From NCBI GenBank assembly GCA_048941015.1, contig JBHLNZ010000035.1:1-18283 (forward strand): a DNA stretch of 18,283 nt. The letters are read 5' to 3'. This document shows, piece after piece, positions 3 to 18,283 of this stretch (positions are counted from its first letter, which is position 1; each line of letters opens with the position of its first letter). Position numbers and translations under genes: made by a program. The notes beneath the pieces were generated by a model. The model did not search any database. It worked only from the letters and a program-made list of their open reading frames with translations, and had not been told where the DNA came from. Origin of the DNA: Promethearchaeota archaeon. GTDB taxonomy: Archaea; Asgardarchaeota; Lokiarchaeia; Sigyniarchaeales; SOKP01.

Positions 3-626
3 CTAGAACTCAACTTTATCATCAATTTTTACGATTCGTCCGTGAGTATTAACATTATTATCACATATTAATTCAATTGCTTTTGGATAAGCTTTTTTCT
101 CCCATTCCATAATCCTTATTGCTAGCATTTTTTCACTATCATTATCATACACCGGAACAGATTTTTGAATTATTATAGGGCCATGATCAGTTTTAACATC
201 TACAAAATGTATTGTACAACCAGTAATTTTTACTCCGTAATCTAAAGCATCTCTTACAGCATGTAATCCTTTAAAAGACGGTAATAAAGAGGGATGTGTA
301 TTTAATACAAGTCCTTTAAACTTATCAATAAAAGGTTCGGAGACTAAACGAGTATATCCAGCTAAAGCAATTAAATTACATTGATATTTTGATAATATTT
401 CAATTAATTTCTGATCAAATTCTTCTCTAGTTCCTTTAAAATTATCTGATTCAACGATGTGGTAGGGAATACCTAACCGTTTTGCTCTTTCAATACAAAA
501 AGCTCCAGCTTTATTACAAATTAGAACTACTACTACTGCCTTATCTTTTAAAATACCATTTATTGTCGATTGGACTATTGCTTCAAAATTAGTTCCTCCT
601 CTAGAAGCAATAATTCCAATTTTCAT
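3..626 (-). CDS. purN: Phosphoribosylglycinamide (GAR) formyltransferase
   Basis: 207 aa. N-terminal IASRGGTNFEAI phosphate loop, LIALAGYTRLV, catalytic NTHPSLLPSFKG, GCTIHFV and DHGPII motifs. Complete ORF ending in TAG at 3-5. Confidence 0.96.
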   Translation of the reverse strand: MKIGIIASRGGTNFEAIVQSTINGILKDKAVVVVLICNKAGAFCIERAKRLGIPYHIVESDNFKGTREEFDQKLIEILSKYQCNLIALAGYTRLVSEPFIDKFKGLVLNTHPSLLPSFKGLHAVRDALDYGVKITGCTIHFVDVKTDHGPIIIQKSVPVYDNDSEKMLAIRIMEWEKKAYPKAIELICDNNVNTHGRIVKIDDKVEF

Positions 627-1089: not shown

Positions 1090-2265
1090 TTATTTATGCA
1101 AAAATTCAAATAAACTTCTAATTGAAGATATCGCTGATTTTACAGAGGATAAATTATTCAAACTTACTTTATTATGTTCGGACATGGTTGGGATTAATTT
1201 TATTTCGTTTAACATTAACATTTCTAATTCTTGAGTTGAGAAAACATTTACACCTCTTTGTATGAGATGAAAATATCCTGATGTCTTTTTCATGCATATT
1301 GGTTTTCCCATATATATTAAAAGAATTATAGTTCCCATTCCTTGTTGCCGATTGTGATACATAATTGCGAGATCAATCTGTTTTAAGATGCCAAAATACT
1401 GATCTGGGTTATAAAAATCGAGAAGGGGAACAAATCGATTTCCAAAAAGCTTCTCACCTTTTTCTACTATTTTTTTAATGTAATTCTTTGGTCCATAGGA
1501 AAGGGGGCAAATTATTTTAAAATTTTGTTTTTTTAAGTTAAACAAGCGGATCATTATGTCGAGATGATTATTTGTTGGATGTCCGGAATTACCTAGTAAA
1601 AATAATTTTTCTCCTTTTTTTTTAAAAATTAAATTCTTATTAAGAGAGATTTTTTCTCCATCTATCTTTTCAAAATCCACTGGATTTGGATATATAAAAG
1701 CAGAATACCATTCTGCTTTAGTTTTGAAGTATTTCTTTAATAATCTAAAATCCCCTTTAAATGGAGAAATAATATAATCAATTCTTTTTATGATTTTTTT
1801 TCTTAACTCATAGGAAAGATAATAAGAGAATCTTTTAAATATCGATTTCTTTCTGTTCTCTAATTTAATCAATAATTCTAATGTATGATTATCATATAAC
1901 TTTAAAGGAAGATATGAATATAAATCAGCACCCCAAATTATCCATAATATTTTTGCTTTTCCTCTAAAACCAAACAAAATTCCAGAGACTTCTTCTTTTA
2001 AATAATGAATAAAAATATTTTCTGCTTGTTTCATTAATTTCCTTATTGTTGCATATCTAATCGTAAAAAATTTAGTCAGAAAATTGCCCTTAAAATTAAA
2101 AATTTTAACATTACGAAATTTTTCGGGATCTATATGTATCTTTTTGTTCTTTTTCTTGATTATTATGAAAAGATGTTCTTCAATATTAAAGTGAGAATGA
2201 ATTAATTCAATAAATCCTTTTGAATAAAAATAAGACGAGTCCGTTATAAAATGCAGGTATTTCAT
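1090..2265 (-). CDS. WecF/RffT-like TDP-N-acetylfucosamine:lipid II N-acetylfucosaminyltransferase family (GT56) glycosyltransferase
   Basis: 391 aa. Family-typical motifs WIIWGADLY, LLGNSGHPTNNH, IICPLSYG and HNRQQGMGTI. Donor sugar cannot be confirmed from sequence. Confidence 0.85.
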   Translation of the reverse strand: MKYLHFITDSSYFYSKGFIELIHSHFNIEEHLFIIIKKKNKKIHIDPEKFRNVKIFNFKGNFLTKFFTIRYATIRKLMKQAENIFIHYLKEEVSGILFGFRGKAKILWIIWGADLYSYLPLKLYDNHTLELLIKLENRKKSIFKRFSYYLSYELRKKIIKRIDYIISPFKGDFRLLKKYFKTKAEWYSAFIYPNPVDFEKIDGEKISLNKNLIFKKKGEKLFLLGNSGHPTNNHLDIMIRLFNLKKQNFKIICPLSYGPKNYIKKIVEKGEKLFGNRFVPLLDFYNPDQYFGILKQIDLAIMYHNRQQGMGTIILLIYMGKPICMKKTSGYFHLIQRGVNVFSTQELEMLMLNEIKLIPTMSEHNKVSLNNLSSVKSAISSIRSLFEFLHK

Positions 2266-2472: not shown

Positions 2473-3972
2473 ATGAATGATGATGAAACATTCTTTGATG
2501 AAAATAAGGTTATCGATTATAGTAGCATAGATCGAAAAGCTGATGCAGGATTAAGATGGAATTCAATCTCGCTAGTATATTCAACGATAACTAAAATATT
2601 AATGATGATAATTCTTGCCCGATTATTCACACCAGGAGAATATGGTGTGATGGGGTTAATTTTAATCATCATTGGATTTGGTATGTTGTTTTCGGATATT
2701 GGTGTTTCTGGGGCGGTTGTACATTATCAGAAGGTGTCTCAACAGCAATTATCTACATTATACTGGTTATCTTTTATAATAGGATTTTCAATATTTTTAA
2801 TTCTAATTTTAATAGCACCGTTAATATCCATGTTTTATAGTGAACCCGATTTAACACTTCTCATTAGAATTACTGCAATAATATTTCTTATCACGCCTCT
2901 GGGGCAACAGTTTGAGATTTTATTTAGGAAAGAGCTTAAATTTAGATCTCTTTCATATCTTGAGATTTTTGATGCAACTATTTTACTTTTTGTTTCCACA
3001 ATATTAGCATTTTATAATTGGGGGGTTATTTCGGTCTTAATCGCCTATTTATGCAAGAGTTTTCTAAAATCTTCCATAATATTCTTTATTGGATTAAAAA
3101 TCTGGAAGCCAACATTTGAAATGAAGTTTTCTGAAATTAGCAAATTTCTATCATTTGGAATGTATCAAATGGGTGAGAGATCCCTAAACTATTTTAACTC
3201 AAATATAGATAAAATTTTAATCGGGAAATTCTTGGGAACAATTTCATTAGGTTATTATAATATAGCTTATAGTCTTATCTTATACCCGATTACTTTAATT
3301 AATCCTATTTTTACCCGCGTTTCATTTCCATATTTTTCTAAGATACAAAATAATATAAAAATTTTAAAAGAAAAGTATTTCGATCTCATAAACATCGTTA
3401 GCTTCATTAACTTTCCAATATATCTTTTATTAATAGTTATTGCACCCTATTTTGTACCTTTATTATATGGCCCGCAATGGTATCCTTCGATAATCTTAGT
3501 TCAGATTCTTTCAGTTGTGGGGATATTTAGATGTATTGGTAATCCAATCGGTTCGCTTTTACTTGCTAAAGGATATGCAAGACTAGGATTTTTATGGAAT
3601 GCTTTTGTAACAATGATATTTCCTTTTTTAGTATTACTCGGGATTTTTTTTGGGGGAATTAATGAAGTAGCTCTTTTTATAATTCTTTCTAACTTAATCT
3701 TTTTCTACTTTAATTACCGTTATCTAATAAGGAAAATATTAAATCCTTGTTTTAAGGAATTTCTAAAATCTTTTGGAATAAATCTAATATTTAGTGTTTT
3801 AGCATCATTAGTCAGTTTATTAGGAGGATTTTTCTTTCAAACACCAATAATATTTTATCAATTATTATATCATATTTTAATAGGTGGTATTTGTTACATA
3901 TGTCTGATATTTATCTTTAAGAGACAATTTCTAATGAATTTTATTAAACGATTTTTAAAAAAAAACCATTAA
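2473..3972 (+). CDS. wzx: Wzx/MOP-superfamily oligosaccharide flippase (WzxC-like)
   Basis: 499 aa with many hydrophobic helices. Motifs LARLFTPGEYG, PLGQQF..FRKELKF, LGYYNIAY, INPIFTRVSFPYFSKIQ and GNPIGSLLLAKG match the colanic-acid flippase WzxC as I recall it. Confidence 0.92.
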   Translation: MNDDETFFDENKVIDYSSIDRKADAGLRWNSISLVYSTITKILMMIILARLFTPGEYGVMGLILIIIGFGMLFSDIGVSGAVVHYQKVSQQQLSTLYWLSFIIGFSIFLILILIAPLISMFYSEPDLTLLIRITAIIFLITPLGQQFEILFRKELKFRSLSYLEIFDATILLFVSTILAFYNWGVISVLIAYLCKSFLKSSIIFFIGLKIWKPTFEMKFSEISKFLSFGMYQMGERSLNYFNSNIDKILIGKFLGTISLGYYNIAYSLILYPITLINPIFTRVSFPYFSKIQNNIKILKEKYFDLINIVSFINFPIYLLLIVIAPYFVPLLYGPQWYPSIILVQILSVVGIFRCIGNPIGSLLLAKGYARLGFLWNAFVTMIFPFLVLLGIFFGGINEVALFIILSNLIFFYFNYRYLIRKILNPCFKEFLKSFGINLIFSVLASLVSLLGGFFFQTPIIFYQLLYHILIGGICYICLIFIFKRQFLMNFIKRFLKKNH

Positions 3973-4118: not shown

Positions 4119-5105
4119 TTATCTACTAAAGGCTTTAAATAGTTTACTAAAATTGTTTCTTTTCAAAATCTTCATTATCTTTTCAAGTAAAATGTCTTTG
4201 ATTGTAATTATTGAATCAATTAGAGCAATACCCAGTTTAACATAATCTATTAATGAAATTCTTGAATAATTCTTAGACTTTTTAAAGTATATTACTGCTC
4301 GTTTAATATTTTTATTTCTAAGAAACGATCTTGTAATCTCTAGATAGTGTCTTTTATATATTTCTTTCTGTAAGTTTATTGGCAAATTCTTAATATCTTT
4401 TTCATATTTTTTTAAAAATTTTTCTTTTGTTACAATTAAATTTTCAGAATTAGTGATAACCACGTTATCATCAATATTTATTTTAACTAGATTCTGATTT
4501 ACATAAGCAATTTTGTATTTTTTAAAAAACCGCATTAATAATTCCCAATCTTGATGTCGCAAGAATGTGATATCAAACCCATTAAGTTCATTTAAGATTG
4601 CTCTTCTTATTAACAAAGTAGAACCTGCAGCAATAGGGTTTTCCATTAATAAAAGTTTAATTTTTAAGTTTCCATGGCTCAAGTTTAAATAGGTGGAATT
4701 CAATTTGTTATTTCTATATTTTGAATATCCGCAGTATACTGCTCCCCAAGAATTATCAAGTTTTTCTAGTAAATTTATTTGTAATTCCAGTTTTTTTTCT
4801 AAAAATTCATCATCGTCATCTAAAAAAGCAATGTATTTTGAGGACGAATATGAAATCCCTGTATTTCGTGCTACTGCAGCGTTTAAATTTGTTTTATGTT
4901 TTAAATATATTATTTTATTATTATTCCGATACTTACTCATCAATTTTTCATTAAGTTTTCTGTACTTACTTTTCTCATCATTATCATCGACCACGATTAT
5001 TTCAAGATTATCCATGGTCTGATTTAGTACAGATTTAATGGCTCTTTCTAATGTAGTATTTCTTTTGTATGTAGGGATAATTACACTAACAATAGTTTTA
5101 CTCAC
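4119..5105 (-). CDS. GT2 family glycosyltransferase (GT-A fold)
   Basis: 328 aa. VSVIIPTY, EIIVVDD, ARNTG, YIAFLDDDD (DxD) and QDWEL motifs. GTG start preceded by GGAGGA on the minus strand. Confidence 0.93.
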   Translation of the reverse strand: MSKTIVSVIIPTYKRNTTLERAIKSVLNQTMDNLEIIVVDDNDEKSKYRKLNEKLMSKYRNNNKIIYLKHKTNLNAAVARNTGISYSSSKYIAFLDDDDEFLEKKLELQINLLEKLDNSWGAVYCGYSKYRNNKLNSTYLNLSHGNLKIKLLLMENPIAAGSTLLIRRAILNELNGFDITFLRHQDWELLMRFFKKYKIAYVNQNLVKINIDDNVVITNSENLIVTKEKFLKKYEKDIKNLPINLQKEIYKRHYLEITRSFLRNKNIKRAVIYFKKSKNYSRISLIDYVKLGIALIDSIITIKDILLEKIMKILKRNNFSKLFKAFSR

Positions 5106-5335: not shown

Positions 5336-6013
5336 TTATTTAATGTTCATAAAATTAATGCTTTTTCTATTCCGATATAACCATGTCTTTTTTTTTATTA
5401 ATATCAACTTTTCTAAAATACCACCTAGCACAGTTCTTTTTAAAACTAGTATCTTTTTATATCCTAAAATAGATAAAATGGCAACTCGATGATGACCATC
5501 TAATAAATAGATCACCCCGTTTTTATTTACAACCCTCACTGGATCTATGGATGGTTCGAAACTATATTTTTTAATTGATTCAACTAAATTGAAATAATAG
5601 GAAATTCTCTGTCGAATAGCTTGTTTAATTAGATCTTCATTTTTTAGTATTGTATTCTGATTTATAAATAAATTCTTTTCCTTGAATAATTTTTCAACTG
5701 CTATATATAGAGGACCTTTAAACCATCCACCCTTTACTTTAGGAATTTTCCAAGCATTTTTATGCAAGAAAGTATTGTAGAACCAATTATAAAATAAAAT
5801 ATTTGCTTTTTCTGGCTGTTTAAGGTATACTTTAAAAAATTCATAAGGTGGAAAGTAACTGATATCTTTACCGCCAAAACCCAGCAAATCTGAAAATTCG
5901 ATATCTTTTTGGCAATTGATTTTGTTAATTTCAACCATCTTAGGTGTAAAGGCTAAGGAAACATAGAGTTTGTTAATAAAACTCTTGATTAAATGGTTTA
6001 ATTGAGTTTTCAT
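5336..6013 (-). CDS. ParB/Sulfiredoxin-fold protein with no HTH domain and an uncharacterised N-terminal region
   Basis: 225 aa. C-terminal half has LVESIKKYSFEPSIDPVRVV...IYLLDGHHRVAILSILG, the GxxRxxA nucleotide-binding signature of the ParB/Srx fold. Start overlaps the upstream stop (ATGA at 6010-6013). Confidence 0.8.
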   Translation of the reverse strand: MKTQLNHLIKSFINKLYVSLAFTPKMVEINKINCQKDIEFSDLLGFGGKDISYFPPYEFFKVYLKQPEKANILFYNWFYNTFLHKNAWKIPKVKGGWFKGPLYIAVEKLFKEKNLFINQNTILKNEDLIKQAIRQRISYYFNLVESIKKYSFEPSIDPVRVVNKNGVIYLLDGHHRVAILSILGYKKILVLKRTVLGGILEKLILIKKKTWLYRNRKSINFMNIK

Positions 6014-6678
6014 GTTTTAACATCACATCTAAGCATAGTATATCTTGAAGATTTACCCAATACAATGATTTTAAATTTTTCTCCTAGTAAAGTTTTAATG
6101 AACTGCATATTTGGCATAAGACTCCACCTATGGCCTCTAATCTTTCTTAAATAACACTTCCCCGTGATTCTTCTTAATTTAAAATTCTTTGTAATTGTCC
6201 AAAAAATGTTTGGGAAAGGTGAGATAGCCATTTCAAGAAATAAAGTTTCTTTTGTCACTTTCTTTAACGATAAAAGTGAGGAGATTAAATCAGGTACTTC
6301 AGTGACAACTGAAAAACAAAATACAATATCAAATTGCCCTAATTCACAAATTTTTAATATATCTAATTTCTTAAAATCTATTTTTAAATCTTTTATCTCA
6401 GACAAGATTCTAGCCTGATATAGTCTATCCTCTCTAATATCAATACCTGTTACTTCTAAAGCCCCATGTTTTTTAGCTTCAAAACAATGCAATCCTGAAT
6501 TACAACCTACATCTAATACTGACTTACCGCTAAGATCACCAAGATCCAATAACTTTAACCTTAAAGCAGCATCAAAATTACCAGAAGTCACTATATCATC
6601 AATAATGTGAATGGATTGATACCATTTTTGAGAAAAAGCCCATTCCTTAATTTTTTCTTTTGTCCATTTAGTTGTCAT
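6010..6678 (-). CDS. Class I SAM-dependent methyltransferase (CmoB-like / WbdD-methyltransferase-like subgroup)
   Basis: Motif I SVLDVGCNSG, motif II VTGID, and GQFDIVFCFSV. N-terminal WYQSI. The ATG at 6678 (MTTKW, with GAGGA upstream) is preferred to the TTG at 6696 in the ORF track. Confidence 0.88.
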   Translation of the reverse strand: MTTKWTKEKIKEWAFSQKWYQSIHIIDDIVTSGNFDAALRLKLLDLGDLSGKSVLDVGCNSGLHCFEAKKHGALEVTGIDIREDRLYQARILSEIKDLKIDFKKLDILKICELGQFDIVFCFSVVTEVPDLISSLLSLKKVTKETLFLEMAISPFPNIFWTITKNFKLRRITGKCYLRKIRGHRWSLMPNMQFIKTLLGEKFKIIVLGKSSRYTMLRCDVKT

Positions 6679-6829: not shown

Positions 6830-8803
6830 TTATAATATCTTCCATACTAACAAATGCTGAGTTGAAAAAACGGGTTCTAATTCTGATTGGAACAATGATT
6901 GGATTAAAAGCCATTCATTACTATAATGTGGCAAATTTTCCTTTGACGAAACAATGTACTGCACATTATATTCAGATCGCACTAGATCACGATCTCTTTC
7001 AATTGTCATATTTAAGGGGATTATTTGTCTTCTTATAAGCTCTAAAGGAGATGTTTGAAAATAATAATCAACATATTCAGGGCGATATATAAAAAATCGT
7101 TGCTTAAGGATGTCGGAAAATACGAGTGAAAAGTATGTACCTTCAATAACTTCTTTTGGATTTAATAGATAATACCATAAAGCTTTGCCAATCTGTGAAC
7201 GCGCGTAAAAGGTTGGTAATAATGATATGCTAGATATTCTTTCTGCTATATATACATCAGTAACAAAGATCAATCCATCTATTTCTTCATTTTGAAAATA
7301 ATATATAATTCCGATTTCTTCGTCAGTTAAATATCTATTTTCCCATGGATAGGGGCTGCTCCTGAGACCAGCCCTATTAGTCTCTATAGTTGTTATTGAA
7401 AATATTAAAATCGAAATTGTCAATATAAGAATCCAGATCCCCTTTTTCATCTTAAGAGAATCAAGAGAAATTTTTGAAAAATTTAGAGTTCTATACTTTT
7501 TTGTTATGAAAACAAACAGAAATAAGATTAAAGAAATAAATGACAATACATAGACAAACCAAAGATCAATTTTAGTAGAAACTTCGACTTTTATAAAGGA
7601 ATACCCTATTGAAATAAATAAGAGAATAACAAGCAAAAGCCAACTTAATGTTTCAGAATAGGTTGAAATAAACTTTTTAATAAAAATTATTCCGTATACC
7701 GAGAAAATAATTAGAATTGGGAAAAAGATTACTATAGAATAAAAGGTATAAGGGAGCAGAAATGAAAAAGGAATAATAAAAAGGATTAAATAGTACTTTT
7801 GAAGAAATTGCCGATTGTAATTATGTTGAGCATTCTTTTTATCATAATGTTTTAATAATGTAGCTAGTTCATATAGCGTTATTATTACCCCTACTGGGAA
7901 AAAAATAGAAATTACTCCTAAATTCCATACATAAAACCAGCTAAGTGATATACCCATCCCGAACAATGTATTCTCATCAAAAAAAGGGGAAAATGTTTGG
8001 TCTTCATCGAGACTCGACAAGAAATCAAAACCAACTGTATTTAATAATTCTAATCCAATAAAAAACGCAATAATACTTAGCAGAAGAATTAAAAATGCAG
8101 TTAATTTGTACAGTAAATTTTTATATTTTCGAATAAATTTGTACTGTAAATTTTTAATTTTTCGGGTTAAAGCTGTAAATATCATAATTACTATTGGTAT
8201 AAATGTAGCTACCCAAAGTTTGTGCGCTAGGGCACCAATAATGAGGAGTAAAAACATAAAAGCTATGGCTTTAAATGCTTTAATCGAATTAGTTATTATT
8301 TTTATATTTAAATTCAAAGCATATATCATGAAAATTGTAATAATAACTCTGGTACTAACGGTCATAACAACATTACTAAGCATATACTGAGAAAGGATAA
8401 TAGCCGCTACAAATATAAATCGGCTCCATTCTTCTTTAAATAGTATATTTCCCAGATTGCGAGAGCTTTTATAAATGATTAAAATGAGAATAATATTGAA
8501 GGTTAATATCGCTTCAGCTATACCAAAGATGCCAAAAGAAACAAATTCTAGAAAACTCATTATAAAAGCAAGAATTAAAGGAACTCCTATAGCACGATGA
8601 GAAAAAGGATAATACCCAAAATAGGAAGCGGGATGGATTAACCATGTATTATTAGAAAATAATGCTCCGTCTCTAAGAGCATTTGCCATCCACATCACTT
8701 GAAATGCATCTACTCCAAAGATGCGTGGATATTGGGTTAATGGAAAAATGATAGCTATTAAAACAAGGCTGAAATAATAGACACGGGTTGTTTTAGATTT
8801 CAT
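6830..8803 (-). CDS. Large multi-pass membrane protein, probable GT-C-fold glycosyltransferase
   Basis: About 12-13 hydrophobic segments, a GVD acidic motif in the loop after TM1 (PRIFGVDAF), and a soluble C-terminal domain ending YNVQYIV...VFSTQHLLVWKI. This is the architecture of archaeal GT-C-like proteins. ATG at 8803 is preferred, with an alternative TTG at 8818. Confidence 0.6.
   Translation of the reverse strand: MKSKTTRVYYFSLVLIAIIFPLTQYPRIFGVDAFQVMWMANALRDGALFSNNTWLIHPASYFGYYPFSHRAIGVPLILAFIMSFLEFVSFGIFGIAEAILTFNIILILIIYKSSRNLGNILFKEEWSRFIFVAAIILSQYMLSNVVMTVSTRVIITIFMIYALNLNIKIITNSIKAFKAIAFMFLLLIIGALAHKLWVATFIPIVIMIFTALTRKIKNLQYKFIRKYKNLLYKLTAFLILLLSIIAFFIGLELLNTVGFDFLSSLDEDQTFSPFFDENTLFGMGISLSWFYVWNLGVISIFFPVGVIITLYELATLLKHYDKKNAQHNYNRQFLQKYYLILFIIPFSFLLPYTFYSIVIFFPILIIFSVYGIIFIKKFISTYSETLSWLLLVILLFISIGYSFIKVEVSTKIDLWFVYVLSFISLILFLFVFITKKYRTLNFSKISLDSLKMKKGIWILILTISILIFSITTIETNRAGLRSSPYPWENRYLTDEEIGIIYYFQNEEIDGLIFVTDVYIAERISSISLLPTFYARSQIGKALWYYLLNPKEVIEGTYFSLVFSDILKQRFFIYRPEYVDYYFQTSPLELIRRQIIPLNMTIERDRDLVRSEYNVQYIVSSKENLPHYSNEWLLIQSLFQSELEPVFSTQHLLVWKIL
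8103..8164. repeat. In-frame tandem duplication with 33-bp period
   Basis: 8103-8131 aatttgtacagtaaatttttatattttcg vs 8136-8164 aatttgtactgtaaatttttaatttttcg (26/29 identical). Encodes RKIKNLQYKFI / RKYKNLLYKLT. Confidence 0.85.
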
Positions 8804-8995
8804 AAAATTAATGATCAACTAATCTTATACAATTAGTTATTATTATTATTTATTTTAAATTTAACCTAACCTAATATCTCAATTTTCGCAAATTTGCAAT
8901 CTTGTTGTTTAATAGATAATTAAGATGGTTTATTGATTGAACAGATTGTAATATATTCTATTTTAACAACCTTTTGACAAACTAACTTCTTAGAT

Positions 8996-9440
8996 TTATT
9001 TTTTTGTGCATTTGTGTACGATTTTTTCCTGGGCTTTTATTCTGTTCCAAGTAGAATATTTTAGTGCAGTTTCTCTACCGTTCATAGCAGTTTTAACTAA
9101 TATATCTTTGTTTTCAAGGAGTTTAATTATTAATAGGATTGATTCCGAATAATTATCAAGACTAAATAAAAACCCATTTATATATTATTTAATATAATTT
9201 GAAATATCAGCAGAAATTGAACAGATTCAGATAATATTACTCCTATTATCGTTGCGGTTAAACCTTCATTTTTAGATGTCAACAAGAAAATCTTTGATTA
9301 ATTGTAATACTTATTTAATTTATTGTTGGGAATTTTTCTTAAATATTTAATAACATTATAAAGATTCCTTTTTTCACCTTTTTTTTGAGAAAGGTTTTCA
9401 TTGGACCATCTCCCTAATAAAAACGCAATTAAGCTTCTTA
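8996..9440 (-). pseudogene. Degraded C-terminal remnant of a GT4 glycosyltransferase
   Basis: Manual translation across frameshifts and stops gives KLNCVFI/GDGPMKTFLKKKVKK/NLYNVIKYLRKIPNNKLNKYYN*SKIFLLTSKNEGLTATII...NGFLFSLDN...KLLENKDILVKTAMNGRETALKYSTWNRIK..K*. These are the GT4 motifs GDGP, S-x-x-EGL and NGFL in the correct order. The N-terminal domain is absent. Confidence 0.85.
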
Positions 9441-9463
9441 ATTTATCCTGTTAATAAGGATAA

Positions 9464-12183: not shown

Positions 12184-12729
12184 TTATTTTTCAAAAATCA
12201 CAAAATGATTACAAAACAATTCAAATTTTTTGTATTTTTTTAATTTTAAATTGTATTTTTGTCCAATTTTTATAAAATCACTTTTTGATAAAATTGTTTT
12301 ATGACTCTCTCTTACAGATTTTGGAAACAAACCCAATATCTCACCACAGAAATGAATAAAATTACCAAATTTAGTAGGCGTTGTTATCACAATTCTTCCG
12401 CCACTCTTTAAGTTATTGATTGATTGCCTAATTGGATTTTCATAGTTCTTTATGTGCTCAATGAATGCTGTCATAATAACTAAATCCACTTTCTCGGGTA
12501 AATTAATTTTATCTTTTTCTAAATTTTTTGAATAAAACTCTCCTAGGGGATATTTTTTAATTAATTCTTTACATTTATAATCTAAATCTACTCCAAAATA
12601 TCTAGTTATCGCCTTATTATTAATTGCTCTAGCATCACCACATCCAATATCTAAAACTTTTCCTTTTAAATATGGTCTAACTTTATTTTCTCTTATATTT
12701 GTTAAATATTTGCTTAATTTGTAGCTCAT
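12184..12729 (-). CDS. Class I SAM-dependent methyltransferase
   Basis: 181 aa. KVLDIGCG, FGVD, FIEHI and LKSGGRIVITTP motifs. Starts 4 nt after the stop of the beta-helix gene. Confidence 0.9.
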   Translation of the reverse strand: MSYKLSKYLTNIRENKVRPYLKGKVLDIGCGDARAINNKAITRYFGVDLDYKCKELIKKYPLGEFYSKNLEKDKINLPEKVDLVIMTAFIEHIKNYENPIRQSINNLKSGGRIVITTPTKFGNFIHFCGEILGLFPKSVRESHKTILSKSDFIKIGQKYNLKLKKYKKFELFCNHFVIFEK

Positions 12730-12733
12730 ATCC

Positions 12734-13828
12734 TTATTCCTTCCTCTTCTTCAGTGATAATTTAGGGATAAAAGATTTGATGTTTTTCCTTTTAATAAAA
12801 AACATTAATTTAATTAGGATTATTGACAATAAAGCTATTATAAAAATAATAGCCGCAATTAAAAAAACATCAGGATAGTCTGTATCATCAGTAAATATTT
12901 CATAAATAGCACCATATCCATTATCCTCTAAGATATTTCCTGTAATTACATTAAAAGTGCTTTCTTCGAGATATATACCATATCTTTGGTTATAACTAGC
13001 GGAATTTTCTATTAAATTATTATAGTGAGAAGATAAAAGTCTAAATCCATGCTGATCGTTATCGTTAGCGGTGTTATTTGAAAAAGTGTTAAGATCGGAA
13101 TAGCTGAGAGTGAATCCGTTGAGATTCCGATTAGCTAGATTTTCTGTTAGAGTATTGTTATATGAAGAACTTAGGTAAAAACCGAGATAAGTATTATCAA
13201 TCACCTCATTGCCTGATATGGTATTGTTATAGGATGATTCAAGAGAAAATCCATGTCTGTTTTTTATTATGATATTTGCCGTCAAAATATTAAAATAGGA
13301 ACAATTTAACGTCAAACCATTGGTATTTCTAACCGCGGTATTAGCGATTAATGTATTATTAAAGGAATTCTTGAGGTAAAATCCGTATTGGTTATTGTAA
13401 GCGATATTATCTTCTAATCTTCCGTGCGTTACATTCTCAAAATAAAATCCATAGTAGTTATTTAATTTTCCATCGTTAACGGTTGTGTTTCTGATAATGA
13501 AATGAAGATCAGTATTCCTAATATGAACTCCATGCTCTATTGTAGCATTAATTTCATAATTTTCAATGATATAAGGATCGTTGAGACTTCCATCTCCACT
13601 CCATCCCTCACTAATTGCCTTAGCAGCAAACGTGTCATTACCATCAATAAATATTGATTCATTAAATGCCGATATCTTTGGTATCTCTGAATATTGATAA
13701 AAATTATCTTCAATAGGAGCCATATTAGCTCCTAAGAACCTAGGTGAAATGAGAAAAAGAAGGTATCCTCCAATTAGCATGCTTAAGATGAGAATAAATA
13801 AAATAACACTAGTGTTTTTATTACGCAT
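12734..13828 (-). CDS. Membrane-anchored parallel beta-helix (NosD-like / pectin-lyase-fold) surface protein
   Basis: 364 aa. N-terminal hydrophobic signal/anchor, GDGSLNDPYIIEN motif, about 8 repeats of ~22 aa of type GFxLxxSxNNTxxxN, then a C-terminal TM helix and basic tail. Many N-x-S/T sequons. Confidence 0.88.
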   Translation of the reverse strand: MRNKNTSVILFILILSMLIGGYLLFLISPRFLGANMAPIEDNFYQYSEIPKISAFNESIFIDGNDTFAAKAISEGWSGDGSLNDPYIIENYEINATIEHGVHIRNTDLHFIIRNTTVNDGKLNNYYGFYFENVTHGRLEDNIAYNNQYGFYLKNSFNNTLIANTAVRNTNGLTLNCSYFNILTANIIIKNRHGFSLESSYNNTISGNEVIDNTYLGFYLSSSYNNTLTENLANRNLNGFTLSYSDLNTFSNNTANDNDQHGFRLLSSHYNNLIENSASYNQRYGIYLEESTFNVITGNILEDNGYGAIYEIFTDDTDYPDVFLIAAIIFIIALLSIILIKLMFFIKRKNIKSFIPKLSLKKRKE

Positions 13829-15291: not shown

Positions 15292-15330
15292 AAAAAAAAT
15301 ATAAATTAAAAATAAAAATAAGAGAAATTT
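15292..15330 (-). terminator. Putative archaeal oligo-T terminator of the AOR operon
   Basis: Several T5-T8 tracts on the minus strand directly after the stop codon at 15338. Confidence 0.45.
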
Positions 15331-15337
15331 ACATTCT

Positions 15338-15895
15338 TTAACCTTGAGATTCTGCTATAATATCCCCAAATAATCTCTTTACTGCTTCGATCCTGGTTTC
15401 TTCTCCAATTTGTTCAACATTCTTCAATGAAATGGCTTCCTTTGGACAAACAGCTATACATTGTGGCTCTCTTTCTCCAACTTCAGGATCGATGAATTCT
15501 TCTTTCATATTTTCGCATAAATCGCAGACTAATGCTTTTTGATCTGTTATATTCAAGGTTATTACTCCAAAATCACATGCTCGAATACAAAATCCACAAC
15601 CATTGCATTTATCGTTATCCACGATAATTGAACCATTTTCATCATCCTTTTCTAAAGCTTTTTCAGGACAACTGCGAACACAGGGAGCATCTTCACATTT
15701 CTGGCAAGCGAGGGCAATATTAAACACTGGTTCTATTCGAACTCTGTGAATTCTAGTATTAATAGGATTAAACGCACCATCATGCACAAAAGAGCATACA
15801 GATTCACACGTTTCACATCCCGTACATAAATTGGGATCAACTACGATGAATTGATGCATAACTCCGCCTCTCTTCTTGGTTTTAACCTTTGACAT
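15338..15895 (-). CDS. 4x[4Fe-4S] electron-transfer subunit (DmsB/AorA-like) of the aldehyde oxidoreductase
   Basis: 185 aa. Four Cys groups: CTGCETCESVC, CQKCEDAPCVRSC, CNGCGFCIRAC and CDLC...PQCIAVC. ATG directly abuts the AOR stop (TAA-ATG), with AGGAGG upstream. Confidence 0.92.
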   Translation of the reverse strand: MSKVKTKKRGGVMHQFIVVDPNLCTGCETCESVCSFVHDGAFNPINTRIHRVRIEPVFNIALACQKCEDAPCVRSCPEKALEKDDENGSIIVDNDKCNGCGFCIRACDFGVITLNITDQKALVCDLCENMKEEFIDPEVGEREPQCIAVCPKEAISLKNVEQIGEETRIEAVKRLFGDIIAESQG

Positions 15896-17827
15896 TTACT
15901 TTTTCCCTCCTTTCTTTGGTGTTGGTTTTAAATTTCCAATTACAAAGTCTAATCCTAATTTTTTTAAAGTCTCATCGGTTGGTATTCCAGTTTCTTTATC
16001 CCATCCCCGAGCTTCGTAATATCCACTTAATAAGGTCTGATAGCCCTCTTCCTTTATAACAACACCCTTTGCTGGACCTTTTGTATGAGCCTCTTTAAAG
16101 AATCGTTCAGGTGGATGATCATCAGCTCTTGTCCATCCTTCTCGAATGTTAAAACATTTAGAAAGAGTTACAATTGAATCTCCTCTAAATAAAATAGATT
16201 CCTCTGTATGAGGGATGCCTGTTACAAGTTCATAAACTTTAGCCATTTCAGCATCATTCTCGTAAATACCTCGGGTAAATTTACATATTATATAAGAATC
16301 TATAAGAGCATAAACATCTTCAACCTCTTTTATTTTCTTTCCACGCTCAAGCGGTTTATCATATCCAAACCGATCGAAAGTTCCTTTAGCATCAAGTCCA
16401 TATGCTCCATTTCTTAAGTGGCATGCTCCTCTGATCGACACACTCTCCCCGACAGCAAATGAGTTCATACCATGGAGATCGAATGCAGGCATTTCTAAGC
16501 CCTTGATATGCATACCATAATAACTAGCATTCTTCTTTCCCATTTCTTCTAATCTTAGTCCAGCTTCTTTAGTTCCATCACCAAATATTTTTCCAGCAAA
16601 TCCTTTACCAAGGATCATTTCTTCAGTAAATCGAACTAAATTTACTGTTGATCCAAATGGTAATTTATATCCTAAATCTTTTTCTGTAATGAGTCCCTCT
16701 TCGAAGCATTCACATGCCATAGCTGCGGTGACACCGCCAGAAATAGCATCAATGCCTAAATCATCGCATAAAGTAATACATTTAAATACTGTAGGCCAAT
16801 CAGCATTACCACAAGCAGTGCCAAATCCATAGCATAATTCGACATCAACACTTGCATAGGTGTTTGGCCAATCAGGATGAGTTTTTGGAATCTTTGCAAT
16901 GTGATCGCATGCAATTGAGCATTGAGAACAAGCAACCTTTTTTACAACCCAATCAATATTAAGGCTATCTCCAGTAAATGTCCCATCATCTATTTTTTCC
17001 CATGTACCTTCTTTATGATTAAATATTGGCATCATACCGAGTTTATTATAACTTGTTAATCCCGCAGGGGTACCTAAATCTCGATATTTAGCTGTAGCAG
17101 GGCCGTTAGCAACTTTTATTAATTTTTTTGCCATTTTATAGAAATCAGCTGGTTTGGCAACTTTAGTACCTTTGGTACCTCTAAAACAGATAGCTTTTAG
17201 ATTCTTAGATCCCATTACAGCACCCATTCCAGTCCTACCTGCTTGCCTATTCCTATCATTTGTTAAACAAGCCATATGACTCATTCTTTCACCGGCAGGT
17301 CCTATTGATAGTACAGCCAAGCGTTGATCTTGAAATTCCTCTCTCAAATGTTCTTCGGTTTCCCAACATCCTTTACCAGCTAATTCAGGACATGGGACAA
17401 TATAATAATCATCATCATCAACAACCATATAGGACAATTCAGGAGCTTTTCCCTTAAAGACAATCATATTAATGCCTGCTCTACGTGCCTGTGCTCCTAC
17501 AGAACCAGAAGAAATTGCCATACCAAACATTCCTGTCAATGGAGATTTAGCAAATACGCCATACTTGGAACTAGTTGGTAAAATCGTCGTAGGAAAGGGC
17601 CCATGTGCATAAACAAAAACATTTTCAGGACTTAAAGGATCAACACCAGGAGGGCATTCATCCCATAATACTTTAGCACCGAAACCATAACCACCAATCC
17701 AGTCTCGACAAAATTCTCTTGATAATGTTGATTTCTCTATTTGACCATTTGTTAAATCAACGTCAAGTCTAACTTGAGAATATCCTTTAATTTCATCAGG
17801 CATAGGTATTTCTTTTGCTTCACTCAT
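15896..17827 (-). CDS. aor: Tungsten-containing aldehyde:ferredoxin oxidoreductase family catalytic subunit
   Basis: AKSPLTG, SIGPAGE, AGRTGMGAVMGSKNLKAI, C-x2-C-x3-C (CSQCSIAC), DDLGID pterin-binding motif, RGACH, DS-x3-CKF and YYEARGW. ATG 17827 (MSEAK) is preferred to GTG 17836. Subfamily and substrate are unknown. Confidence 0.94.
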   Translation of the reverse strand: MSEAKEIPMPDEIKGYSQVRLDVDLTNGQIEKSTLSREFCRDWIGGYGFGAKVLWDECPPGVDPLSPENVFVYAHGPFPTTILPTSSKYGVFAKSPLTGMFGMAISSGSVGAQARRAGINMIVFKGKAPELSYMVVDDDDYYIVPCPELAGKGCWETEEHLREEFQDQRLAVLSIGPAGERMSHMACLTNDRNRQAGRTGMGAVMGSKNLKAICFRGTKGTKVAKPADFYKMAKKLIKVANGPATAKYRDLGTPAGLTSYNKLGMMPIFNHKEGTWEKIDDGTFTGDSLNIDWVVKKVACSQCSIACDHIAKIPKTHPDWPNTYASVDVELCYGFGTACGNADWPTVFKCITLCDDLGIDAISGGVTAAMACECFEEGLITEKDLGYKLPFGSTVNLVRFTEEMILGKGFAGKIFGDGTKEAGLRLEEMGKKNASYYGMHIKGLEMPAFDLHGMNSFAVGESVSIRGACHLRNGAYGLDAKGTFDRFGYDKPLERGKKIKEVEDVYALIDSYIICKFTRGIYENDAEMAKVYELVTGIPHTEESILFRGDSIVTLSKCFNIREGWTRADDHPPERFFKEAHTKGPAKGVVIKEEGYQTLLSGYYEARGWDKETGIPTDETLKKLGLDFVIGNLKPTPKKGGKK

Positions 17828-18283
17828 GTTATTCACATAAAATTCTGTTATTAACTTATGATTTGATATTAATTTTTAACTTTATAACAAATTTAATATT
17901 TAGAATAAGCAATTATTTATTAGGTTTCTTGTTAATTTCCTCTGGGAGTGCCTTTTAATATCACTTACTAAATTAGCTCAGTTTATTTCAAACTCACTTT
18001 ATTTTAATTAAAAAAATATTTTTCGCTGTTTAATGTGAGAATTTTAAAAAAAAAGCACTAAATTTTTAATTAATATTATTTATTTTCTTAAATATTTTCA
18101 ATCGCAGCGTTTTATTTTATAATAAAAAATTTAATAATATTGCTTTAATTAGTTAATACCTTAAAGGTTCGTGATATTAATATAACAATCTTAATATGAA
18201 TTTAAATAATACATTAAATGGTTTTTTTTCTTTTGTTACATTCATTATAATATTGTTATTTCAGATCTCTAATGGAATTCTTT

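What the first reader, a model, noticed from the sequence alone, without database searches (positions are those of the whole stretch)
5336..6678. Coupled methyltransferase + ParB/Srx-fold pair inside a glycosylation locus: candidate glycan phospho-methyl capping module
Seen: the two genes overlap by ATGA (translational coupling) and lie between a GT-C-like gene and a GT2. The downstream protein has an intact DGHHRVA signature, only ~45 aa after it (no HTH or dimerisation domain), and no ParA lies in the window, so partitioning is unlikely. Known: the ParB/Srx fold binds nucleotides and can transfer phosphate (sulfiredoxin, and the free-serine kinases SerK and SbnI). E. coli O9a WbdD fuses a methyltransferase and a kinase to cap O-antigen with methyl-phosphate. 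This methyltransferase (YQSI...D..LRLKL...VLDVGC..G...GID...GQFDIVFCFSV) resembles my recollection of the WbdD methyltransferase domain, though also CmoB-like enzymes. Inference: a split, non-homologous WbdD analogue in which the ParB/Srx protein phosphorylates a sugar or glycan and the methyltransferase methylates it. Caveat: WbdD works with ABC exporters, whereas this locus has a Wzx flippase.
Basis: partly seen in the sequence, partly recalled or inferred. Interest (0 to 1): 0.78.

Follow-up and report, generated by a model that had tools for sequence, protein, structure and literature searches.

The report
ParB-fold protein and methyltransferase glycan module
Two overlapping genes in a sugar-chain gene cluster of a Loki-type Asgard archaeon encode a methyltransferase and its constant partner, an unannotated protein with the nucleotide-binding ParB/sulfiredoxin fold. 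The same pair recurs in sugar-chain clusters of distant bacteria, so it is a real but biochemically unknown glycan-decorating unit, and my tests weaken the idea that it makes a methyl-phosphate cap.

Summary
Genes 6010-6678(-) (class I SAM methyltransferase, 222 aa) and 5336-6013(-) (225 aa) overlap by ATGA. They lie between a GT-C-like gene and a GT2.

The 225-aa protein matches no Pfam model. It belongs to a family of about 125 sequence clusters. A confident model (pLDDT 94.6) shows a ParB/Srx core split by a roughly 90-residue helical insert. G-H-H-R is invariant. The closest solved relatives by profile are the kinases SerK and SbnI.

The pairing is not chance:
- In 26 of 34 family lineages, the same methyltransferase type sits next to it on the same strand.
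- Two proteins fuse the two domains. Others fuse the domain to GT2 or to Wzx.
- In about 900 genomes searched, the full-length methyltransferase was found only where the partner is.

Two results cut against a strict WbdD analogy. The two histidines WbdD needs to methylate phosphate are Thr-Glu here, and the Glu is invariant. Some lineages also pair the ParB-like protein with a sulfotransferase or a GT-C instead.

Best reading (0.4): an NTP-using, probably phosphorylating enzyme primes a lipid-linked glycan, and the methyltransferase depends on it. Main rival (0.3): it is a non-catalytic partner or adaptor.

This scan has already noted the same family on other DNA several times.

The parts
6010..6678 (-). 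Class I SAM-dependent methyltransferase, 222 aa (P0001), the dedicated partner of the ParB-like family
   Evidence: Pfam Methyltransf_31/25/11/9. The family alignment A4 has invariant Y20, R40, the LDxGCNSG motif, D117, E127 and E149. Model pLDDT 91.8. Fold neighbours are EvdMO1-N, CmoB-like and WbdD. hhalign to WbdD gives probability 96.3.
5336..6013 (-). Unannotated ParB/Srx-fold protein, 225 aa (P0002)
   Evidence: No Pfam hit at E<=0.01; ParBc_2 scores E 0.051. 125 representative clusters. Model pLDDT 94.6. All top Foldseek and VIA structural matches are ParB/Srx proteins. The family profile hits SerK at E 9.6e-5 and SbnI at 6.8e-4.
6010..6013 (-). ATGA overlap: stop of the methyltransferase gene and start of the ParB-like gene
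   Evidence: Read directly from the sequence and from the two translations.
5486..5497 (-). Codons of G173-H174-H175-R176, the Box II (P motif) of the ParB/Srx fold
   Evidence: G, H175 and R are in 106 of 106 family members, and H174 in 103 of 106. SerK and SbnI carry the same GHHR (alignment).
5639..5899 (-). Family-specific helical insert (residues about 39-125) between strand 1 and the Box I helix of the ParB/Srx core. It carries G45, P55, W77 and K92-x-x-G95-G96-x-x-x-G100.
   Evidence: Secondary structure of the model. Structural alignments to Srx, SerK and SbnI span 22..208 but align only 79-94 residues. Conservation counts.
5708..5740 (-). Glycine-rich loop K92..G95 G96..G100 (P/S)101 L102, a candidate second anion-binding site
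   Evidence: K in 90 of 106, G95 in 105 of 106, G96 in 106 of 106, G100 in 101 of 106. The function is inferred.
6298..6303 (-). Codons of T126-E127 of the methyltransferase, at the position of WbdD H132-H133
   Evidence: hhalign column by column. WbdD numbering was checked on the E. coli HS gene. T126 is at least 90% conserved and E127 is invariant.
4119..5105 (-). GT2 glycosyltransferase immediately downstream on the same strand
   Evidence: Pfam Glycos_transf_2, E 3.5e-34. It is 30% identical over 280 aa to the GT2 half of the GT2-ParB-like fusion P0028.
6830..8818 (-). 662-aa polytopic membrane protein upstream, GT-C-like
   Evidence: No Pfam or NCBIfam hit. The nearest ESM Atlas clusters are PMT_2/ArnT-like, score 0.98, which is a lead only. 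GT-C (PMT_2/PMT) genes also follow family members in L077 and L081.
2473..3972 (+). Wzx-type flippase of the locus
   Evidence: Pfam Polysacc_synt_3, E 6.3e-74. One family member (P0062) is fused to such a flippase.

Best explanation
The two genes form a conserved two-protein module that decorates a lipid-linked glycan unit on the cytoplasmic side, before the Wzx flippase exports it.

The 225-aa protein belongs to an unannotated branch of the ParB/Srx fold. This branch keeps the nucleotide-binding Box I and Box II (GHHR, as in the kinases SerK and SbnI) and adds a roughly 90-residue helical insert with a glycine-rich loop. I infer that it binds a nucleotide (ATP, ADP or CTP) and transfers phosphate to the glycan.

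The methyltransferase was found only together with this partner. It then methylates the primed glycan, either on the new phosphate or, as its Thr-Glu acceptor site suggests, on a nearby hydroxyl.

Shown here: the fold, the motifs, the conserved pairing and fusions, and the glycan-locus context. Inferred: nucleotide binding, phosphotransfer, the order of the two steps, and the methyl acceptor.
For: Fold and motifs.
- The model has pLDDT 94.6.
- The top Foldseek hits are all ParB/Srx-fold proteins. In the wide VIA search the ParB/Srx proteins, with sulfiredoxin first, are the matches that cover the core: Srx Z 6.3 with 87 of 89 residues aligned, SerK Z 5.3, SbnI Z 4.9.
- The best profile-to-PDB hits are SerK (9.6e-5), 1vk1 and SbnI.
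- GHHR is invariant, and Box I S146, I147 and G151 are conserved.
- In tested ParB-fold proteins the Box II arginine is needed for NTP binding, and ParB-fold fusions to SAM methyltransferases bound ATP (PMC12704722).

Coupling.
- The genes overlap by ATGA.
- 26 of 34 lineages have the same methyltransferase type adjacent on the same strand, in both orders.
- Fusions P0064 and P0054 carry methyltransferase halves 39% and 33% identical to P0001 over the full length.

Asymmetry. The full-length methyltransferase occurred only beside the partner:
- G000 alone among 361 and 400 genomes of its own phylum.
- G401 alone among 401 genomes.
- G400 and G848 among 147 genomes.
The partner, by contrast, occurs without the methyltransferase. 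This fits a partner that acts first.

Glycan context.
- Fusions to GT2 (P0027, P0028) and to Wzx (P0062).
- GT4, GT2, a PglK-like ABC flippase, CMP-sugar synthetase, epimerase and aminotransferase genes around bacterial members.
Against: - No biochemical evidence exists.
- No acidic residue is invariant. The Asp of DGHHR is G, N or D across the family, and no residue equivalent to SerK E30 is fixed.
- The structural match covers only the roughly 90-residue core at modest Z.
- The methyltransferase has Thr-Glu where WbdD has the two histidines needed for a phosphate acceptor.
- Its best fold match is a sugar O-methyltransferase.
- One lineage pairs the partner with a sulfotransferase and two with a GT-C. 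A general adaptor role explains this equally well.
Confidence: 0.4

Rival explanations
1. The ParB/Srx-like protein is a non-catalytic partner. It would be an activator or adaptor, possibly gated by a nucleotide or binding the diphosphate of the lipid carrier. Its role would be to bring small soluble transferases (this methyltransferase, or elsewhere a sulfotransferase or a GT) to the lipid-linked glycan or to the flippase. The methyltransferase would then O-methylate a sugar hydroxyl directly.
For: - The invariant residues are Gly, His, Arg and Lys (anion binding), with no fixed acid.
- The partners vary: methyltransferase, Sulfotransfer_3, GT-C, and fused GT2 or Wzx.
- Lineages without the methyltransferase are nested inside clades that have it, with at least 4 changes forced by well-supported branches.
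- The methyltransferase has an invariant Glu at the acceptor site, and its top fold hit is a sugar O-methyltransferase bound to fucose.
- Obligate activator subunits of class I methyltransferases are known. Trm112 is one, and a Trm112 complex is among the fold hits.
- ParB-fold proteins acting as scaffolds are discussed in PMC12704722.
Against: - Complete conservation of GHHR together with Box I is more typical of a working nucleotide site.
- The closest sequence relatives are true kinases.
- No prediction of contact between the two proteins was obtained.
Confidence: 0.3
2. One reading: a split, non-homologous analogue of WbdD. The ParB/Srx protein phosphorylates the glycan end, the methyltransferase methylates that phosphate, and the methyl-phosphate cap terminates or marks the chain.
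For: - The methyltransferase is homologous to the WbdD methyltransferase domain over 144 columns (probability 96.3). The equivalents of Y16 (essential), R36 and D82 are kept (PMC3482155).
- The near-invariant R212 lies just before the last strand, where WbdD has R203. This is a topological inference.
- The methyltransferase was found only with the partner.
Against: - WbdD H132 and H133 correspond to T126 and E127, and an invariant acid sits badly beside a phosphate nucleophile.
- WbdD is only rank 10 by fold.
- The locus has Wzx, not Wzm/Wzt.
- The family is fused to Wzx.
- Neither protein has a coiled-coil ruler or any other WbdD-like domain.
Confidence: 0.13
3. The partner acts on a soluble nucleotide-type molecule rather than on the glycan. 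It might make or edit the cofactor that the CmoB-like methyltransferase uses (as CmoA does for CmoB), or handle an activated sulfate or sugar nucleotide.
For: - Foldseek ranks CmoB first for the methyltransferase, TM 0.72-0.76 over the whole length.
- One lineage pairs the partner with a sulfotransferase.
- An earlier scan note, unchecked here, places the cassette in a sulfate-activation operon.
Against: - The CmoB equivalog scores are far below cut-off.
- Fusions to GT2 and Wzx point to the membrane-bound glycan.
- There is no evidence for any modified cofactor.
Confidence: 0.07
4. A DNA-directed pair (a ParB-like nuclease or clamp plus a DNA methyltransferase) from a mobile element or defence system that merely landed in the glycan locus.
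For: ParB-fold plus methyltransferase fusions are common in phages (PMC12704722). There are weak PHROG hits to ParB-like proteins, E 0.004.
Against: - No HTH or nuclease domain.
- No PADLOC hit for the partner.
- No relatives in the phage or plasmid collections.
- The methyltransferase is of the small-molecule type.
- The context in many phyla is glycan genes.
- GC content equals that of the surrounding locus.
Confidence: 0.03

Closest known systems
SerK (Thermococcus kodakarensis TK0378, PDB 5X0B) and SbnI (Staphylococcus, PDB 5UJD/5UJE), free L-serine kinases of the ParB/Srx fold
   Same: They share the ParB/Srx core, have the identical GHHR Box II motif, and lack an HTH. They are the best profile-to-PDB hits (E 9.6e-5 and 6.8e-4), with structural Z 5.3 and 4.9. 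They show that this fold can be a small-molecule kinase (PMC5120207).
   Different: Only about 60 residues align by sequence. The NCBIfam SerK model scores 15 bits against a cut-off of 380. The C-terminal domain of SerK and SbnI is absent. A roughly 90-residue insert is present here. The Asp of DGHHR is not conserved. The context is glycan assembly, not cysteine or siderophore synthesis.
Sulfiredoxin (Srx; PDB 6KY4, 1XW3)
   Same: It is the best whole-domain structural match: Z 6.3, with 87 of 89 residues aligned. It is a minimal single-domain ParB/Srx enzyme that uses ATP and has no fixed acid in Box II.
   Different: The catalytic Cys of G-C-H-R is His here. Srx has no insert. It acts on a protein sulfinic acid.
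WbdD of E. coli O9a / K. pneumoniae O3 (kinase plus methyltransferase O-antigen terminator; PDB 4AZS, 4AX8)
   Same: The logic is the same: a phosphorylating activity joined to a methyltransferase in a glycan pathway. The methyltransferase domains are homologous (probability 96.3, Z 16.6), with the Y16, R36 and D82 equivalents kept.
   Different: The WbdD kinase has a eukaryotic-type protein-kinase fold, whereas the partner here has the ParB/Srx fold. H132 and H133 are replaced by Thr-Glu. There is no coiled coil. This locus uses Wzx, not an ABC exporter. The two parts are separate proteins here.
ParB-CTPase-fold fusions to SAM-dependent methyltransferases surveyed in PMC12704722
   Same: A ParB-fold domain is joined to a class I methyltransferase. 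Those tested bound ATP through the Box II arginine.
   Different: That survey collected proteins with PF02195 at its gathering score. This family has no PF02195 hit even at E<=10, so it was presumably not included. Those fusions were read as acting on DNA or RNA and are enriched in phages. This family sits in glycan loci.
CmoB (tRNA U34 carboxymethyltransferase) and the EvdMO1 N-terminal sugar O-methyltransferase
   Same: They are the closest folds to the methyltransferase over its whole length, including the N-terminal hairpin and C-terminal sheet: TM 0.72-0.76 for CmoB, and Z 18.8 for EvdMO1-N and 17.7 for the CmoB-like 4p7c.
   Different: Only the Rossmann core matches the CmoB sequence models, at 49 bits against cut-offs of 209 and 275. 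The first roughly 100 residues of CmoB are missing. There is no tRNA or antibiotic context.

Membership tests
ParB/Srx fold (superfamily) | Core fold with the Box II G-x-x-R phosphate-binding motif | tested here: met
   Top fold matches are all ParB/Srx proteins. GHHR is invariant in 106 members.
ParB/Srx fold (superfamily) | Box I helix and loop (S-I-x-x-x-G) that contacts the base | tested here: met
   In the family, S146 is 77%, I147 87% and G151 94% conserved. P0002 itself has Ser at 151.
ParB/Srx fold (superfamily) | Match to Pfam ParBc (PF02195) at its gathering score | tested here: not met
   No PF02195 hit at E<=10; only ParBc_2 at E 0.051, 14 bits against a cut-off of 23.6.
Canonical partition ParB | HTH DNA-binding domain, C-terminal dimerisation domain, and a ParA partner | tested here: not met
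   49 residues follow GHHR, modelled as one strand and one helix. No ParA among the window ORFs scanned.
SerK/SbnI free serine kinases | Score at or above the NCBIfam SerK equivalog cut-off, and a C-terminal substrate domain | tested here: not met
   15.3 bits against 380. Alignments stop at SerK residue about 100.
SerK/SbnI free serine kinases | Catalytic acid (E30 in SerK, as in the PDB mutant titles) | tested here: inconclusive
   No fixed acid column. 97 of 106 members have some Asp or Glu within the 8 residues at the start of the Box I helix, which is not specific.
Sulfiredoxin | Catalytic Cys in G-C-H-R | tested here: not met
   The position is His174 in 103 of 106 members.
WbdD (O9a type) | Eukaryotic-type kinase domain and C-terminal coiled coil | tested here: not met
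   Neither protein has such a domain. hhalign covers WbdD residues 14-174 only.
WbdD (O9a type) | Methyltransferase residues essential for phosphate methylation: Y16, H132, H133, R203 (PMC3482155) | tested here: not met
   Y16 corresponds to Y20 and is kept. H132 and H133 correspond to T126 and E127. R203 lies outside the aligned part, and R212 is only a topological guess.
WbdD (O9a type) | Works with a Wzm/Wzt ABC exporter | tested here: not met
   The window has a Wzx-type flippase and no ABC exporter. One bacterial locus has a PglK-like ABC protein.
CmoB (tRNA cmo5U34 synthase) | Score at or above the equivalog cut-offs, with the full-length architecture | tested here: not met
   49 and 47 bits against 209 and 275; only residues 46-143 match.
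Class I SAM-dependent methyltransferases | Rossmann-like fold with the motif I glycine-rich loop and an acidic residue at the end of strand 2 | tested here: met
   Several Pfam methyltransferase models pass their cut-offs. VLDVGCNSG and D80 are conserved. Z reaches 18.8 against solved methyltransferases.

The most novel reading that the evidence does not exclude
This family would be a previously unrecognised class of glycan kinases built on the ParB/Srx fold. With its dedicated methyltransferase it would put a phosphate or methyl-phosphate on lipid-linked repeat units just before Wzx flipping. That would be a non-homologous, split counterpart of WbdD, spread by gene transfer between Asgard archaea and many bacterial phyla.
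Probability: 0.2. Interest if true: 0.8.

Novelty: new variant of a known kind. Interest (0 to 1): 0.62.

Why it matters
The ParB/Srx fold is known as a CTP-driven DNA clamp and, in three cases, as an enzyme (Srx, SerK, SbnI). A conserved branch of the fold that is wedded to a methyltransferase in surface-glycan loci would add a new role for it. It would also add a new, assayable step to glycan decoration.

The family has no Pfam or NCBIfam model. The 2025 survey of the fold collected proteins with a Pfam model that this family does not match.

For Asgard archaea, whose surface glycans are almost unstudied, the module predicts a specific modification that mass spectrometry could look for: methyl, phosphate or methyl-phosphate.

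The gene pair is patchy. It occurred in one of roughly 400 genomes in each of two phyla, so it is an accessory, probably transferred, trait that varies the cell surface.

Tried and rejected
With the single proteins P0002 and P0011 it found nothing. I replaced it with two degenerate-motif DNA scans, which sample only about a third of the family.
- The search for longer fused forms with the alignment returned nothing, which is weak evidence.
- tblastn against plasmids and phages gave no match.
- Complex prediction of the pair gave no verdict: score 0.00, controls not run. This is not evidence either way.
- P0081 (2283 aa, 10 stretches) is a repetitive CHU_C protein and was dropped as spurious.
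- PADLOC gave no hit for the partner. PHROGs gave only weak ParB-like hits.
- Rfam found nothing in the window.
- The sigma-70 and terminator scans are uninformative for an archaeon.
- The supplements of PMC12704722 held no list of the methyltransferase fusions.
- The SbnI paper was not held.
It was rerun by reference.
- I considered whether the insert has a known fold. Only weak helical matches appeared (P450 helices, Z about 4.2), which I judged to be chance.
- The family was not listed among hits to Stealth, LicD or sulfotransferase folds. That was not specifically tested.
Full report
**Observation**

The window is a whole 18.3-kb contig of a 3.6-Mb genome with GC about 27%. Other notes of this scan call the organism a Loki-type Asgard archaeon. 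One methyltransferase homologue carries the source name Promethearchaeota.

Two minus-strand ORFs match the finding exactly. P0001 is 6010-6678 (222 aa) and P0002 is 5336-6013 (225 aa). Plus-strand 6010-6013 is tcat, so the coding strand reads ATGA and the stop of the first gene overlaps the start of the second. DGHHRVA is at residues 172-178.

All large ORFs of the window were scanned. The locus, in window order:
- A WecF-like GT56.
- A Wzx flippase, on the plus strand.
- A GT2.
- The pair.
- A 662-aa membrane protein with no family hit, which is GT-C-like by language-model features only.
- Two GT4.
- A second methyltransferase.
- A NosD/beta-helix protein.
- A DPM-like GT2.
- A ferredoxin and an aldehyde:ferredoxin oxidoreductase, in DNA of higher GC.

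There is no ParA.

**The ParB-like protein**

P0002 has no Pfam hit at E<=0.01. ParBc_2 scores E 0.051 and the NCBIfam SerK model scores E 0.008, at 15 bits against a cut-off of 380.

A full HMMER search of 1.8 billion representatives found 125 clusters, mostly about 200 aa. An alignment of 72 members (A1) shows:
- Invariant: G95, G96, G173, H175, R176.
- Nearly invariant: G45, P55, W77, K92, G100, G151, H174.

The Asp of DGHHR is not conserved, and no acidic column is fixed.

The AlphaFold model is very confident, with pLDDT 94.6. All top Foldseek matches are ParB/Srx proteins: Srx, Noc, PadC, ParB, SbnI and SerK. They cover only 55-60 columns. The wide structural search gives Srx Z 6.3 (87 of 89 residues, spanning model residues 22-208), SerK 5.3, KorB 5.0, and SbnI and PadC 4.9.

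The family profile finds SerK (9.6e-5), its Pyrococcus homologue 1vk1, SbnI (6.8e-4) and then Srx (0.08) among PDB sequences.

So the protein is a ParB/Srx core whose first strand (22-28) is separated from the Box I helix (126-150) by a family-specific helical insert of about 90 residues. The insert carries GFGG, W77 and the loop K92-x-x-G-G-x-x-x-G. There is no HTH.

**The methyltransferase**

P0001 is a class I SAM enzyme. Scores for the CmoB equivalogs are far below cut-off and cover only the Rossmann core.

Its model has pLDDT 91.8. Foldseek ranks CmoB first, at TM 0.72-0.76. The Foldseek-independent search ranks the EvdMO1 N-terminal sugar O-methyltransferase first (Z 18.8), then CmoB-like 4p7c (17.7), with WbdD at rank 10 (Z 16.6, 185 residues aligned).

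Among PDB sequences, the family profile hits WbdD at E 3e-9, and this is the longest aligned span of any hit.

I fetched wbdD from E. coli HS (O9) beside wzt and aligned it to the family profile. The result was probability 96.3 over 144 columns. The residue equivalences are:

| WbdD residue | Role in WbdD | P0001 family |
|---|---|---|
| Y16 | essential for methyltransferase activity | Y20, invariant |
| R36 | binds SAM | R40, invariant |
| D82 | binds SAM | D80 |
| H132, H133 | essential for methylating phosphate | T126 (at least 90%), E127 (invariant) |

The WbdD authors found H132 and H133, together with R203, essential for methylating phosphate, and absent from sugar-hydroxyl methyltransferases (PMC3482155). 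The conservation figures come, and the WbdD numbering was checked. R203 lies beyond the aligned part. The near-invariant R212 sits just before the last strand and is only a topological candidate for its equivalent.

So the methyltransferase is a relative of the WbdD domain, but it lacks half of WbdD's phosphate-acceptor signature.

**Is the pairing real?**

Five of the representatives are fusions. P0027 and P0028 are GT2 plus the domain. P0062 is a Wzx flippase plus the domain, from a Thermodesulfobacteriota MAG. P0064 and P0054 are the domain plus a methyltransferase. The fused methyltransferase halves are 39% and 33% identical to P0001 over the full length.

In genomes, four of twelve hits are true members, and all four have the P0001-type methyltransferase adjacent:
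- A Planctomycetia genome: methyltransferase, then the domain, then GT4, GT4 and DUF354. Upstream lie a CMP-sugar synthetase, an epimerase, a HAD protein and a PglK-like ABC protein.
- A Saccharibacteria genome: GT4, then the domain, then the methyltransferase, then GT4.
- Two Kofleriaceae genomes: the domain, then the methyltransferase.

In metagenomes, 39 of 41 loci hold a member. In 26 of those 39 the methyltransferase is adjacent on the same strand, with the two domain matches less than 70 nt apart.

After clustering at 70% identity, 26 of 34 lineages have the adjacent methyltransferase.

The exceptions are informative:
- One lineage (L078, L089, L090) has a Sulfotransfer_3 gene directly downstream, followed by a polysaccharide deacetylase gene on the opposite strand.
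- Two lineages (L077; L057 and L081) are followed by a GT-C (PMT_2/PMT).
- Others sit beside GT2 or GT4.

On a tree, these lineages are nested among methyltransferase-paired ones, and well-supported branches force at least four changes.

**Phyletic pattern**

| Genomes searched | ParB-like domain | Full-length P0001-type methyltransferase |
|---|---|---|
| Own phylum (400 and 361 genomes, including G000) | only G000 | only G000 |
| Own family (134 genomes) | none | none |
| Phylum of the Planctomycetia genome (401 genomes) | only G401 | only G401 |
| Order of the Kofleriaceae genome (147 genomes) | G400, G403, G848 | G400 and G848, each next to the domain |

In G403 the methyltransferase gene is cut by the contig end.

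No genome had the full-length methyltransferase without the domain. Only three weaker, partial methyltransferase relatives stood alone. The numbers are small, but the asymmetry is consistent: the methyltransferase is never alone, while the partner sometimes is.

**How it most likely works**

What is shown:
- A ParB/Srx core with Box I and an invariant GHHR Box II.
- A conserved insert with a glycine-rich loop.
- Tight genetic coupling to a dedicated methyltransferase.
- Fusion to GT2 and Wzx.
- A glycan-locus context.

What follows from published knowledge: the Box II arginine mediates NTP binding in this fold, and ParB-fold fusions to SAM methyltransferases bound ATP (PMC12704722). SerK is a true kinase of this fold (PMC5120207).

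Inference: the protein binds a nucleotide and phosphorylates the lipid-linked unit on the cytoplasmic face. The methyltransferase, which depends on it, then methylates either the phosphate or a neighbouring hydroxyl, before Wzx flips the unit. I give this reading 0.4.

The main rival (0.3) is a non-catalytic adaptor or activator that binds a nucleotide or the carrier diphosphate. It is favoured by the lack of a fixed acid, by the change of partner to a sulfotransferase or a GT-C, and by the methyltransferase's Thr-Glu site and sugar O-methyltransferase-like fold.

**Comparison with the known, and novelty**

The protein is a member of the ParB/Srx fold. It fails the tests for canonical ParB, SerK/SbnI, Srx and Pfam ParBc. 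The pair works like WbdD only in outline. The most complete survey of the fold used PF02195 at its gathering score, which this family does not reach. Literature searches found no characterisation.

This scan has already flagged the same family on other DNA several times. Those notes are unchecked AI notes. My own tests agree with them on the fold, the glycan context and the fusions. They add the residue test against WbdD, the sulfotransferase and GT-C partners, and the phyletic asymmetry.

I class the finding as a new variant of a known kind.

Noticed in passing
window 6830-8818 (-): A 662-aa polytopic membrane protein with no Pfam or NCBIfam hit. The nearest ESM Atlas clusters are PMT_2/ArnT/STT3-like (score 0.98). 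It may be a divergent GT-C. GT-C genes also follow ParB-like family members in L077 and L081.
   Followed up: partly
L089:987-2453 (also L078, L090): In one metagenomic lineage the ParB-like gene is followed within about 30 nt by a Sulfotransfer_3 gene instead of the methyltransferase. A polysaccharide deacetylase and a formyltransferase-like gene come next.
   Followed up: partly
window 5336-6013 (-), residues 33, 101, 151: The window's own protein departs from the family at three otherwise conserved positions. It has N33 where 68% have R, P101 where 75% have S, and S151 where 94% have G in Box I. All invariant residues are intact.
   Followed up: no
window 12184-13828 (-): A second, unrelated methyltransferase (Methyltransf_23, 181 aa) lies directly downstream of a 364-aa NosD/right-handed beta-helix protein. 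That protein has a C-terminal membrane anchor and many N-x-S/T sites, so it is a possible glycosylated surface substrate.
   Followed up: no
window 1090-2265 (-): A WecF-like GT56 (TDP-Fuc4NAc:lipid II transferase family) in an archaeal locus. It scores 234 bits on NCBIfam PRK02797.1-5, below the cut-off of 457. This family is best known from the enterobacterial common antigen.
   Followed up: no
window about 15300-18283: GC rises from about 0.27 to 0.37 at the ferredoxin and aldehyde:ferredoxin oxidoreductase genes. This marks the edge of the low-GC glycan island.
   Followed up: no
L003 (G266:C123:2367-2576) and L005-L031: Other genomes of the phylum hold ORFs of 221-300 aa that match only the ParB/Srx core of the profile (positions about 130-195). 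Many are 235-263 aa, the size of SerK. They are probably SerK-like or other ParB/Srx paralogues, not this family.
   Followed up: no
L065:3-1403 (-): A family member is fused at its C-terminus to a roughly 325-residue extension with no Pfam match. This is a further, unexplained fusion partner.
   Followed up: no
window 8819-9463: A 645-bp stretch between the GT-C-like gene and the next GT4 has no ORF of 80 aa or more and no Rfam match.
   Followed up: partly
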